A stretch of 64,000 bases of DNA, from positions 1 through 64,000 of the forward strand of contig CAWEXY010000013.1 of NCBI GenBank assembly GCA_963813135.1. The letters are read 5' to 3'. The translations under genes and the position numbers were made by a program. The notes under the pieces are model-generated. The model was not told the DNA's origin. It saw only the letters and a program-made list of their open reading frames with translations, and ran no database searches. Source of the DNA: an uncultured Verrucomicrobiae bacterium. GTDB taxonomy: Bacteria; Chlamydiota; Chlamydiia; Chlamydiales; Rhabdochlamydiaceae. Below are positions 9,511-9,670 of this stretch, piece by piece (positions within the stretch are counted from its first letter, which is position 1; each line of letters opens with the position of its first letter).

Positions 9511-9670
9511 CGAGACCACCCGAGGTATTCCGCACCAGCGAGTGCCCTAATTTGATCGTGGCAGGTCTGTGAGAAATGACGACGGACGTGTCATCATACG
9601 GCTTTGACCGTGGAAAGGTGGTTGTCAGATCGTCTCGATCGAATTGGAACGAGGCAGAGAACGGATCGAT
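9511..9670 (+). ncRNA. Predicted bridge RNA / seekRNA (ends approximate)
   Basis: Two stem-internal-loop-hairpin modules whose loop strands match the target flanks (9523-9530, 9549-9555) and the circle junction (9586-9595, 9614-9620). Confidence 0.75.

What the first reader, a model, noticed from the sequence alone, without database searches (positions are those of the whole stretch)
9511..9670. Readable bridge RNA: all four guides match this IS's own target and donor
Seen: the right end has two internal-loop modules. Target loop: AGGTATTC (9523-9530) is the exact reverse complement of the core plus right flank GAATACCT (9735-9742), and AATTTGA (9549-9555) equals the left flank plus core (8434-8440). 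They flank a GCAC/GTGC hairpin and are closed by AGACC/GGTCT. Donor loop: ACGTGTCATC (9586-9595) matches the bottom strand of the left end (ACACGCCATC) at 7/10, all three differences being G.T-wobble compatible, and AAAGGTG (9614-9620) equals 9729-9735. They flank a TACGG/CCGTG hairpin and are closed by a 7-bp TGACGAC/GTTGTCA stem. Established: IS110/IS1111 recombinases use such bispecific RNAs. Inferred: target AATTT-GA-ATACCT, donor AAAGGT-GA-TGGCGTGT, GA/TC core. This is a compact (333 aa), intact, probably archaeal and reprogrammable member.
Basis: partly seen in the sequence, partly recalled or inferred. Interest (0 to 1): 0.85.

Follow-up and report, generated by a model that had tools for sequence, protein, structure and literature searches.

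The report
Bridge RNA of an archaeal-type IS1111 element
This is a small jumping gene of the IS110/IS1111 family that carries its own guide RNA, whose loops spell out both the site it landed in and its own ends; it is a well-supported but ordinary new member of a mechanism described in 2024.

Summary
Every quoted match sits at the stated coordinates.

The element spans 8440-9733 and is flanked by TG on both sides. It encodes a 333-aa DEDD recombinase (Pfam PF01548 + PF02371; NCBIfam 'IS110 family RNA-guided transposase'). A structured RNA of about 135 nt lies at 9500-9634, overlapping the stop codon.

Across 15 distinct related copies the two-module fold holds: 97% of cells pair and 11 pairs show compensatory changes. 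The target-loop guides differ between copies and track each copy's own flanks (0 of 10,000 permutations on either side). The 3' donor guide changes together with the right end in two copies.

- The shared core is TG, not GA. The base after TG on the right is A in 12, G in 5 and C in 1 of 18 junctions, and the guide follows it.
- The loop-closing stems differ from those proposed.

The assembly as a whole is bacterial. However, the first ~20 kb of the contig, on both sides of the IS, is Methanomassiliicoccales-like by synteny and composition. A chimeric contig is most likely; a real inter-domain island is not excluded.

No empty site, circle junction or RNA end was seen. Verdict: new member of a known kind.

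The parts
8434..8439 (+). Left target half. AATT (8434-8437) matches the left target guide; TG (8438-8439) is the left copy of the core.
   Evidence: Read. The left junction is ...TG|ATGGCG in all 18 rows. Own-versus-cross test.
8440..9733 (+). The insertion sequence proper, 1,294 bp (1,296 bp counting one TG core copy).
   Evidence: BLAST of related copies stops at these ends. Single copy in the assembly.
8440..8449 (+). Right donor half (left end of the IS), ATGGCGTGTT. Its top strand is bound by the 5' strand of the donor loop.
   Evidence: Together with the preceding G (8439), 7 of 10 positions are Watson-Crick and 3 are G.T/U.G positions.
8447..8466 (.). Left subterminal inverted repeat, GTTAAAAGAGGTTCCCCGCC.
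   Evidence: Read. The gapless core 8451-8462 pairs with 9714-9725 (I10). Two 1-nt indels separate it from the right arm.
8507..9508 (+). Recombinase gene, 333 aa, intact.
   Evidence: PF01548 at 6.6e-30 and PF02371 at 2.7e-20. NF033542 'IS110 family RNA-guided transposase', 250 bits against a cut-off of 140. Homologous to the IS621 transposase 8WT6 at 5.7e-10.
9500..9634 (+). Structured core of the bridge/seekRNA. It starts inside the last codons of the recombinase gene.
   Evidence: Alignment A2. Structure test: 97.2% paired, 11 compensatory pairs, 0 of 500 shuffles reach this. Covariance model R1 scores 157.8 bits here. True RNA ends are unknown.
9501..9519 (+). 5' strands of the target-module stems: basal stem 9501-9510 and closing stem 9514-9519.
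   Evidence: They pair with 9564-9573 and 9558-9562. Compensatory changes at alignment pairs 6-72, 10-68 and 19-62.
9520..9531 (+). 5' strand of the target loop (right target guide). [quoted passage not shown]
   Evidence: I15.
9532..9545 (+). Target-module hairpin, GCAC/GTGC.
   Evidence: 3 of its 4 pairs show compensatory changes (helix 3).
9546..9557 (+). 3' strand of the target loop (left target guide). AATT+TG (9549-9554) is identical to the top strand of the left target, so it pairs with the bottom strand.
9558..9573 (+). 3' strands of the target-module stems.
9578..9585 (+). 5' strands of the donor-module basal stem (9578-9581) and closing stem (9582-9585).
   Evidence: They pair with 9631-9634 and 9622-9625. 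L041 carries two compensatory changes in the basal stem. The register is ambiguous because GAC(G) is repeated.
9586..9596 (+). 5' strand of the donor loop (right donor guide), ACGTGTCATCA.
9597..9612 (+). Donor-module hairpin, UACGG/CCGUG.
   Evidence: 3 of its 5 pairs show compensatory changes (helix 6).
9613..9621 (+). 3' strand of the donor loop (left donor guide). AAAGG+TG (9614-9620) is identical to the right end.
   Evidence: It changes together with the right end in L025 (AAAAGTG in both) and L041 (ATAGGTG in both).
9622..9634 (+). 3' strands of the donor-module stems.
9711..9728 (.). Right subterminal inverted repeat, GGCGGGGACCTCTTTAAC.
9729..9735 (+). Left donor half, AAAGG (9729-9733), plus the right copy of the TG core (9734-9735).
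9736..9745 (+). Right target half. AATACCT (9736-9742) matches the guide; after one mismatch GG (9744-9745) matches again.
   Evidence: I15.

Best explanation
Window 8440-9733 is an intact IS1111-type member of the IS110 family.

**Components.** Its 333-aa DEDD recombinase is followed by a structured RNA of about 135 nt (9500-9634) made of two stem / internal-loop / hairpin modules.

[quoted passage not shown] **Proposed mechanism.** The element would excise as a circle that joins AAAGG-TG-ATGGCG. The RNA would then hold this donor junction next to a target reading AATT-TG-AATACCT. The recombinase would exchange strands at the shared TG.

**What is shown here:** the family membership of the protein, the element's ends, the conserved RNA fold, and the covariation of guides with flanks and with the right end.

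**What is inferred by analogy with ISEc11/ISPa11 and IS621:** that the RNA is made, that it binds the recombinase, that a circle forms, and that exchange occurs at TG.
For: **Protein**
- PF01548 + PF02371; NF033542, 250 bits against a cut-off of 140.
- phmmer hit to the IS621 transposase 8WT6 at 5.7e-10. D7, E56, D94, D97 and S256 align to its acidic residues and to the Ser of its SG motif.
- The motif G-x-x-P-x-x-x-x-S-G is present at 248-257.

**Ends**
- 13 genome loci and 23 metagenome loci were scanned with end patterns.
- Every complete relative starts ...TG|ATG[GAT]C[GA]TGTTAAA (the L012 type starts TG|ACATGTTAAA). Every complete relative ends TTT[AT]ACA[AT]A[GA]G|TG.

**Fold**
- On 15 distinct sequences, 97.2% of 465 cells pair.
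- 11 of 31 pairs show changes on both sides, against 3.3 +/- 1.2 in shuffles (0 of 500 reach the observed value).
- Structures slid by 1-3 columns pair only 24-43% of cells.

**Target guides**
- Right side: the longest exact run between the 5' loop strand and the copy's own right junction averages 5.81 (n = 16). Against other copies' junctions it averages 3.92 (n = 236).
- Left side: contiguous identity upstream of TG averages 3.56 for own flanks (n = 18) and 0.80 for others.
- 0 of 10,000 permutations reach either observed mean.
- Out of sample: L042 (42% aa identity) has a 7-nt run with its own right flank. L039 (47%) matches 7 of 8 on the left.

**Donor guide.** The two copies with an altered right end (L025, L041) carry the same change in the 3' donor strand.

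**Layout.** It agrees with the published IS1111 pattern: long non-coding region downstream of the gene, subterminal inverted repeats, and the top-strand guide placed 5'.

**Other sites for the same guide.** Contigs of run X1 show this IS variant beside another left flank that also ends AAATTTG, and beside another right flank that begins TGAATA (table 7).
Against: - No RNA was observed directly. The only transcript evidence is a metatranscriptome contig of a related copy (29 differences). It covers 9368-9737 and runs on into a flank, which shows neither ends nor strand.
- No empty site and no circle junction were found.
- The single-sequence fold is not the MFE and is no better than shuffles.
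- Some copies match their right flank poorly by the run measure: L036 scores 3, and L006, L011, L026 and L030 score 4. For most of these that is at or below their cross means, because many targets are A-rich.
- The register of the right target guide relative to the hairpin shifts by +/-1 nt in L011, L012, L025, L027 and L041.
- L025's left flank does not fit its own guide (1 nt).
- The 5' donor strand does not track variation in the left end. Win-type copies have 3 wobbles, L033/L036 have a U.T mismatch, and L041 matches only 6 of 10.
- L042's 3' donor strand does not match its right end.
- The copies are kin, and three guide sets occur twice, so the permutation figures overstate independence.
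Confidence: 0.9

Rival explanations
1. The conserved right-end region is not an RNA guide. On this reading it is a set of DNA sites (subterminal repeats and recombinase-binding sites), or a 3' UTR/terminator, and the matches to the flanks are chance or reflect a sequence preference of the protein.
For: - The MFE fold is unremarkable.
- Rfam has no match.
- In the window alone, each single match has a 2-9% chance.
- Many targets are A/T-rich, so cross-matches are frequent.
Against: - Compensatory changes in four separate helices argue for a folded single strand.
- The loop sequences differ between near-identical copies exactly where the flanks differ.
- The right-end change in L025 and L041 is mirrored about 110 nt upstream, in the loop.
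- For IS1111 relatives, an RNA from this region co-purifies with the transposase and is required in cis or in trans.
Confidence: 0.04
2. The core is GA, and the five copies with GG on the right result from tolerated core mismatches.
For: - In the window both junctions read TGA, so GA fits here.
- GA fits 12 of 18 right junctions.
- The 3' target strand reads ...TGA in all copies.
- Some core mismatch tolerance is reported for IS621 (passages only).
Against: - In 5 of 5 copies with G after TG, the right target guide also specifies G. In L042 it specifies the observed C. So this position behaves as a programmable target base, not as a fixed core shared with the donor.
- TG is present at both junctions in 18 of 18 copies.
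- The 3' donor strand ends ...GGTG, and the next base (G, A or T) is unrelated to either A or the flank.
Confidence: 0.12
3. Host question, reading A. The contig is a chimera: about 20.3-20.7 kb of Methanomassiliicoccales DNA, with the IS in it, was joined by the assembler to a bacterial contig. The IS therefore lives in an archaeon.
For: - Window 925-8316 is 84-85% identical to, and collinear with, G156:C135. Window 10336-20253 is 69-86% identical to G041:C2.
- TyrDC is 92% and PhaC 87% identical in protein to those genomes.
- G041-G045 have TBP (5 of 5) and no sigma-70 (0 of 5).
- Tetranucleotide correlation of the two flanks is 0.46 and 0.49 with the rest of G000, but 0.85-0.94 with the archaeal segments. 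C13:20772-end gives 0.985 with the rest of G000.
- In the same-genus genome G001, the backbone at C13:20772 runs straight into C14:1267.
- C14:1-1266 holds a gene with weak bacterial paralogues and none in 5 archaeal genomes.
- Close homologues of the recombinase occur in 10 of 201 genomes of the archaeal order. None occurs in the 200 other genomes of the bacterial order, where the best hit is 28-30% identical.
Against: - No read-level evidence was available for the join at 20254-20771.
- G000 does carry extra DNA at exactly this backbone position relative to G001 (C14:1-1266), as a real island would require.
- Estimated contamination of the assembly is low, 1.94%.
Confidence: 0.78
4. Host question, reading B. 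The 20-kb archaeal-like segment is really integrated in the bacterial chromosome. That would be a very recent archaeon-to-bacterium transfer carrying the IS.
For: - The segment is contiguous with 43 kb of backbone that is syntenic with the same-genus bacterium.
- The insertion point coincides with a break in synteny where G000 has other extra DNA.
Against: - Composition is wholly unameliorated.
- No integrase, tRNA or repeat lies at the join.
- The other edge (C14:1-1266; GC 0.40) is not archaeal-like.
- No second copy of the IS exists in G000.
Confidence: 0.15

Closest known systems
IS1111-family elements with seekRNA (ISEc11, ISPa11, ISKpn4, ISPst6; Siddiquee et al. 2024, PMC11187229; outline and sections 6, 9, 13 read, other passages by term search)
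   Same: - DEDD transposase in the 330-350 aa range, with the G--P----SG motif.
- Subterminal inverted repeats with short terminal extensions.
- Long non-coding region downstream of the gene.
- The top-strand-complementary target match lies 5' of the bottom-strand-complementary one.
- Each close group of IS has its own target.
   Different: - These are bacterial elements; this clade was found only in Methanomassiliicoccales genomes.
The degree of relatedness is therefore untested.
- No experiment exists for this element.
IS621 bridge RNA and recombinase (IS110 group; Durrant et al. 2024, PMC11208160, passages read; structure 8WT6)
   Same: - Two internal loops, each with a left guide pairing with the bottom strand and a right guide pairing with the top strand.
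- A 2-nt core is included in the pairings.
- Homologous recombinase (E = 5.7e-10).
- The donor sequence is more conserved than the target sequence.
   Different: - The RNA lies in the right end, after the gene, not in the left end.
- The order of guides within the loop is reversed.
- The core is TG rather than CT.
- The left target guide is short (4 + core) and the right one long (about 7 + G of the core). IS621 has a 9-base left and a 4-base right guide.
- The first core base T is unpaired in the right target guide of most copies.
ISCro4 transposase (PDB 9t56)
   Same: Homologous C-terminal domain (E = 3.6e-07).
   Different: Only a 70-residue stretch matched. Nothing else was compared.
Archaeal IS110-family elements already catalogued (e.g. 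ISHvo9, ISHvo10 in ISfinder; 662 archaeal IS110 recombinases in Vaysset et al. 2024 preprint; passages read)
   Same: Shows that the family is known in archaea.
   Different: In the passages read, no bridge RNA is decoded for an archaeal element. ISHvo10 is described as having long non-coding regions on both sides, unlike this one.

Membership tests
IS110 family (DEDD recombinase) | N-terminal DEDD RuvC-like domain (PF01548) plus C-terminal PF02371 domain | tested here: met
   6.6e-30 and 2.7e-20, both above the curated cut-offs. NF033542, 250 bits against a cut-off of 140.
IS110 family (DEDD recombinase) | Catalytic D-E-D-D and the Ser of the SG motif conserved | tested here: met
   D7, E56, D94, D97 and S256 align with the corresponding residues of the IS621 chain in the phmmer alignment. 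They are invariant in 5 relatives. Which IS621 residues are catalytic is recalled, not taken from a call.
IS1111 group | Subterminal inverted repeats of appreciable length (7-17 bp in the literature) with short terminal extensions | tested here: met
   8447-8466 pairs with 9711-9728, 18-20 nt with two 1-nt indels. The gapless core is 12 nt at 92% (I10). Extensions are 7 nt on the left and 5 nt + TG on the right.
IS1111 group | Long non-coding region downstream of the transposase gene, short one upstream | tested here: met
   225 nt from the stop codon to the element's last base (9509-9733), against 67 nt upstream (8440-8506).
IS1111 group | Transposase of 330-350 aa with the GL-P----S(t)G motif | tested here: met
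   333 aa. The motif reads G-V-S-P-T-T-C-Q-S-G at 248-257, with V in place of L.
IS1111 group | Transposase clusters with IS1111-type transposases in a phylogeny | not tested
Bridge RNA / seekRNA | Two internal loops, each carrying one guide for each strand of target or donor, overlapping at a shared core | tested here: met
Bridge RNA / seekRNA | Guides covary with target and donor sequences across orthologues | tested here: met
   Target guides: 0 of 10,000 permutations on both sides. 3' donor guide: 2 of 2 altered right ends are mirrored in the guide. 5' donor guide: no clean covariation.
Bridge RNA / seekRNA | The RNA is transcribed, binds the recombinase and is required for recombination | not testable with these tools
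   The only evidence is a metatranscriptome contig of a related copy over 9368-9737, which shows no ends.
Bridge RNA / seekRNA | Circular intermediate with abutted ends; precise insertion without duplication beyond the core | tested here: inconclusive
   No joint of either kind was seen in 4 runs of contigs. No empty site was found in 40 relatives, nor in the archaeal homologues of the flanks.
Rfam families | Match to a curated covariance model | tested here: not met
   No relevant match at E <= 1 in 8300-9900. No match at gathering score anywhere in the window.

The most novel reading that the evidence does not exclude
The 20-kb Methanomassiliicoccales-like segment that carries the IS is truly integrated in the bacterial chromosome. 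That would mean an RNA-guided IS1111 element, still intact and still sitting at a site that matches its own guides, has crossed from an archaeon into a bacterium very recently, together with a PHA gene cluster and a tyramine operon. Because targeting depends on its own RNA rather than on host factors, such an element could work in both domains.
Probability: 0.12. Interest if true: 0.8.

Novelty: new member of a known kind. Interest (0 to 1): 0.35.

Why it matters
Bridge/seekRNA-guided recombinases are being developed as programmable tools for inserting, excising and inverting DNA. This clade adds three things.

- **A decoded archaeal example.** All four guides, the core (TG) and the scaffold can be read off. 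A small covariance model recognises relatives down to about 42% protein identity.
- **A natural reprogramming series.** Copies sharing 88-91% of their DNA carry different target loops and sit at correspondingly different, mostly A/T-rich intergenic sites.
- **A candidate for genetics in methanogenic Thermoplasmatota.** The recombinase is compact at 333 aa, and tools for these organisms are scarce.

None of this changes the understanding of the mechanism.

The side observation matters for anyone using this assembly. An archaeal-like 20-kb block is fused to a bacterial backbone in one contig. If the join is real, it would be a striking inter-domain transfer.

Tried and rejected
- **Second copy in the own assembly:** none found.
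- **Empty site in 40 relatives, by DNA:** only two trivial matches of 29-34 nt.
- **Empty sites for L005/L006 in sister archaeal genomes:** the coding flanks align at 73-84%. The intergenic DNA at the insertion point is too diverged to read a junction.
- **Empty site in the archaeal homologues of the window's flanks (G156, G041):** the alignment stops 120 nt before the left junction and 600 nt after the right one. The two flanks are adjacent in neither genome.
- **Contigs of 3 DNA runs and 1 RNA run laid on 8150-10050:**
  - No joint skips the IS and none joins its ends.
  - There is no cover over 8342-8405 in any run.
  - One 92-nt skip (9513 to 9606) occurs in a single low-depth contig of X1 and was not interpreted.
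- **Single-sequence MFE fold:** z = -0.34.
- **Rfam:** one chance RsmY match inside the coding region (E = 0.68), nothing else.
structure A (GACC/GGTC) gives one broken pair in L041 and no compensatory change in that helix. The re-drawn stems do better.
- **Synteny of the genes next to the IS in bacterial relatives:** the phasin-like and PhaC proteins were not found there. The antiporter has only 31-42% paralogues.
- **Enolase look-alikes in the protein atlas:** they showed only that the backbone gene is bacterial-like.
- **tRNA/tmRNA scans:** no tRNA in the window and no tmRNA in the assembly.
- **Earlier findings of this scan:** nothing on record for this place.
- **An archaeal promoter for the RNA or the gene:** I looked at the A/T-rich words TTAAAAGA (8448-8455) and CTTATACT (9466-9473) by eye only, and make no claim.
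Full report
**1. The observation**

- AGGTATTC (9523-9530) is the reverse complement of GAATACCT (9735-9742).
- AATTTGA (9549-9555) equals 8434-8440.
- ACGTGTCATC (9586-9595) is complementary to the top strand of the left end at 7 of 10 positions. 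The other three are G.T/U.G positions.
- AAAGGTG (9614-9620) equals 9729-9735.

The repeat finder extends the right-target complementarity to 10 of 11 (I15).

For this copy alone the matches are suggestive only. In 20,000 shuffles of 9509-9710, an 8-nt match to the right junction arose 414 times, a 7-nt match to the left junction 1,783 times, and both together 49 times. The single-sequence MFE fold does not show the proposed structure and is no more stable than shuffles (z = -0.34). Rfam has nothing here.

**2. The element**

- ORF 8507-9508 encodes 333 aa with PF01548 and PF02371.
- It scores 250 bits against NCBIfam NF033542 'IS110 family RNA-guided transposase', whose cut-off is 140.
- It is homologous to the IS621 transposase of PDB 8WT6 (E = 5.7e-10). 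D7, E56, D94, D97 and S256 align to that chain's acidic residues and SG serine. Which IS621 residues are catalytic is my recollection.
- The assembly holds one copy.

Relatives came from two scans. A scan of species-representative genomes gave 13 loci, all titled Methanomassiliicoccales or Methanobacteriota MAGs, at 62-94% best-segment protein identity; five of the 13 cover only part of the protein. A metagenome scan gave 80 loci. About 20 of these belong to this clade; the rest are 26-36% identical IS110-family genes.

BLAST and end patterns define the same ends everywhere.
- The left junction reads ...TG|ATGGCGTGTTAAA.
- The right junction reads ...TTTAACAAAGG|TG.

Subterminal inverted repeats lie at 8447-8466 and 9711-9728. 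The long non-coding region is downstream of the gene. These are the features that define the IS1111 group in the two 2024 papers.

**3. The RNA fold**

I aligned the region from the last codons of the gene to just past the second module, using 15 distinct sequences (A2). These were drawn from 20 complete copies. I left out L006 (which differs from L005 at one base outside the loops), L024 (one base from the window), L028 (identical to L010), and L029 and L032 (identical to L012).

RNAalifold proposed a longer basal stem that includes the stop codon, and a CCAC/GUGG closing stem.

The combined structure performs best.
- It pairs 97.2% of 465 cells.
- 11 of 31 pairs show changes on both sides, against 3.3 +/- 1.2 in shuffles (0 of 500 reach the observed value).
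- Structures slid by 1-3 columns pair only 24-43%.

The two terminal hairpins carry most of the covariation (GCAC/GUGC, GUGC/GCAC, GCGU/ACGC; ACGG/CCGU, ACGC/GCGU, AUGC/GCAU, GCGG/CCGC). The register of the donor-module stems remains ambiguous, because GAC(G) occurs three times in a row. The structured core in the window is 9500-9634; the real RNA ends are unknown.

A covariance model built from A2 was searched over the window and 93 loci.
- It found all clade members.
- It found four loci that were not used to build it: L037 at 128.8 bits, L042 at 82.2 bits, L039 (cut by the contig end) and L069 (weak, 30.9 bits).
- It found nothing in the 26-36% identical loci.

**4. Guides against flanks**

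The scaffold is nearly invariant, but the two loop strands of the first module differ between copies.

*Left side.* The 3' strand reads NNNN-TG-A. The four bases before TG equal the copy's own left flank in most cases. Mean contiguous identity is 3.56 for own flanks (18 rows) against 0.80 for others, and 0 of 10,000 permutations reach this.

*Right side.* The longest exact run between the reverse complement of the 5' strand and the copy's own junction averages 5.81 (16 rows), against 3.92 for other copies' junctions (236 pairs). Again 0 of 10,000 permutations reach this.

*Rows dropped.* From the right-side count I dropped L024 (same flank as the window) and L027 (4 nt of flank). From both counts I dropped the repeats of the L012 insertion (L013, L014, L029, L031, L032).

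*Weak cases.*
- L036 scores 3. L006, L011, L026 and L030 score 4, each interrupted by single mismatches.
- The register shifts by +/-1 nt in L011, L012, L025, L027 and L041.
- L025's left flank matches its guide at only 1 nt.

The copies are related, and three guide sets occur twice. The permutation figures therefore show a strong association, not independent events.

*Out-of-sample checks.* L042's guide has a 7-nt run with its own right flank. L039's matches 7 of 8 on the left.

*Other sites for the same guide.* Contigs of run X1 show the window's IS variant next to another left flank that also ends AAATTTG, and next to another right flank beginning TGAATA (table 7). That is what one guide hitting a second similar site would give.

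**5. Donor side**

The 3' strand of the second module (AAAGG-TG) equals the right end. In the two copies whose right end differs, the loop carries the same change: L025 has AAAAG-TG in both, and L041 has ATAGG-TG in both.

The 5' strand (ACGUGUCAUCA) does not track left-end variation.
- It fits ATGACATGT of L011 with one wobble.
- It fits ATGGCGTGT of the window with three wobbles.
- It fits ATGTCGTGT of L033/L036 with a U.T mismatch.
- L041's version matches only 6 of 10.

Durrant et al. also describe irregular RDG-RD pairing in IS110 elements (passage).

**6. The core**

The left junction is TGA in all 18 rows. The right junction, however, is TGA in 12, TGG in 5 and TGC in 1 of 18 distinct junctions. 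In all 5 TGG cases the right target guide also specifies G, and in L042 it specifies the observed C.

That base therefore belongs to the target, and the A at the left junction belongs to the IS. Only TG is common to both junctions in every copy. The re-parsed sites are:
- target AATT-TG-AATACCT;
- donor AAAGG-TG-ATGGCGTGT.

In most copies the right target guide pairs with the G of the core but not the T. For the window the predicted empty site is the same under either parsing.

**7. Comparison with what is known**

The strand logic matches IS621: left guides pair with the bottom strand, right guides pair with the top strand, and the core is included.

The position of the RNA and the order of the guides match what Siddiquee et al. 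report for IS1111 elements. The guide lengths are the reverse of IS621's 9-base left and 4-base right guide.

Bridge RNAs were predicted in 93% of ISfinder IS1111 elements. Archaeal IS110 recombinases are already catalogued. The finding is therefore a new member of a known kind.

Three literature searches found nothing closer in the held library:
- IS110 + Methanomassiliicoccales gave 0 papers.
- 'bridge recombinase' + methanogen gave 0 papers.
- 'bridge RNA' + archaeal + IS1111 gave 12 papers, none on an archaeal bridge RNA judging by title or abstract.

Supplements of the two 2024 papers, which list predicted bridge RNAs and targets per IS, were not opened. They may already include relatives of this clade.

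**8. Whose genome is it?**

*The assembly is bacterial.*
- It has a sigma-70 gene and EF-Ts.
- It has no TBP and no L31e.
- The window encodes MutL, a class-II CCA enzyme, a PhoR-like kinase and SufBD.
- Window 20772-64000 is collinear at 71-78% with the same-genus genome G001.

*The first ~20 kb is not bacterial.*
- Window 925-8316 (thiolase, reductase, PhaC/PhaE, phasin-like gene) is 84-85% identical to, and collinear with, G156:C135.
- Window 10336-20253 (antiporter, tyrosine decarboxylase, ClC channel and others) is 69-86% identical to G041:C2.
- TyrDC is 92% and PhaC 87% identical in protein to those genomes.
- G041-G045 have TBP and lack sigma-70. TBP genes lie on the same contigs as their IS copies.
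- Both flanks of the IS correlate in tetranucleotide use at 0.46 and 0.49 with the rest of G000, but at 0.85-0.94 with the archaeal segments. The rest of contig C13 correlates at 0.985 with G000.

*The recombinase follows the archaeal pattern.* Close homologues occur in 10 of 201 sampled genomes of the archaeal order (E <= 1e-80). None occurs in the 200 other sampled genomes of the bacterial order, where the best hit is 28-30% identical.

*The backbone comparison.* In G001, the backbone at C13:20772 continues directly into C14:1267.

*My reading.* The IS sits in Methanomassiliicoccales DNA. The join at 20254-20771 is most likely an assembly chimera (about 0.78). A real and very recent inter-domain island is not excluded (about 0.15). 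I could not test the join with reads.

**9. A caveat on the window's own junctions**

L024 is 99.7% identical to the window over the IS and its right flank. Its left flank is different, and it is the end of a DDE_Tnp_1 (IS4/IS5-like) transposase gene. That flank joins the window's sequence 7 nt before the IS.

Two explanations are possible. Some strains may have that second IS inserted just upstream, or one of the two contigs may be mis-joined through the repeat. Both left flanks end AAATTTG, so the guide reading is unaffected.

**10. What remains inferred**

- That the RNA is made. An RNA-library contig of a related copy covers 9368-9737 but shows no ends.
- That it binds the recombinase.
- That a circle forms.
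- That exchange occurs at TG.
- That the element is active.

Noticed in passing
window 1-20771 versus 20772-64000: One contig combines about 20 kb of Methanomassiliicoccales-like DNA with a bacterial backbone. The archaeal-like part is 69-86% identical to, and largely collinear with, two archaeal genomes and has archaeal-like tetranucleotide use. The bacterial part is syntenic with the same-genus genome. The join lies in an A/T-rich 518-bp stretch (20254-20771) with no integrase or tRNA. Either it is a chimeric contig or a recent inter-domain island.
   Followed up: partly
window 925-8343: The archaeal-like DNA holds a polyhydroxyalkanoate gene set: thiolase, acetoacetyl-CoA-reductase-like SDR, two PhaC-like genes, PhaE and a 365-aa phasin-like repeat protein. 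An 84-85% identical copy lies in G156, a genome of the same order as the archaeal MAG G041. PHA genes in this methanogen order may deserve a look.
   Followed up: partly
window 11087-14458: An amino-acid/amine antiporter gene is followed by a 637-aa bacterial-type tyrosine decarboxylase (TIGR03811, 753 bits, below its 905-bit cut-off). This looks like a tyramine-producing pair. The archaeal MAG G041 has it at 92% protein identity; no other of 201 sampled genomes of that order does.
   Followed up: partly
window 3157-4117, 5448-6706, 18953-20244, 29576-32168: Several genes are split into two adjacent ORFs: thiolase, a PhaC-like gene, a ClC channel and glycogen phosphorylase. This occurs in both the archaeal-like and the bacterial part. 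It suggests frameshift errors of the assembly, or pseudogenes.
   Followed up: no
window 45080-45165 and 53967-54052: A repeat of about 80 nt matches in both orientations (so it is palindromic). It occurs at dozens of places on many contigs of the bacterial assembly at 75-93% identity. It looks like a REP/MITE-like element.
   Followed up: no
L012 2431-4128 (same in L013, L014, L029, L031, L032, L034): One sublineage of this IS is inserted inside the recombinase gene of another IS110-family element, at ...ATACC-TG-AGTTCGAC. Its right target guide matches the junction TGAGTTCG at 8 of 8 (its left guide matches only CC plus the core TG). The same nested arrangement recurs in 7 loci. L011 sits at a similar-looking site. 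An IS110-family element that targets another IS's transposase gene is already described for ISEc21.
   Followed up: partly
L009 3354-4487; L025 1-906; L024 1-368: An IS4/IS5-like element (DDE_Tnp_1 transposase) interrupts the recombinase gene of copy L009. A related transposase gene forms the left flank of L024 and L025, ending 7 nt before the IS.
   Followed up: partly
window 9695-9711 versus 9735-9749: A segment inside the right end, AAATACCTAGGTCGG, resembles the right target GAATACCTGGGCCGG at 12 of 15. It is 9 of 10 complementary to the right target guide (I22). The segment is conserved in copies whose guides differ. It may be coincidence, or a hint at how this guide arose.
   Followed up: no
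window 9635-9710: Downstream of the two modules the right end keeps conserved blocks (GGAGAAATCA, GATGTAGAA) in most copies. The stretch around 9628-9640 can form either a GATCG/CGATC hairpin or part of the donor-module basal stem. Its role was not resolved.
   Followed up: no
window 9368-9737 (run X23): A 468-nt contig from a metatranscriptome library, belonging to a related copy (29 differences, 2 gaps), covers the end of the gene and the whole right end. It then continues 98 nt into another flank (record 24).
   Followed up: no
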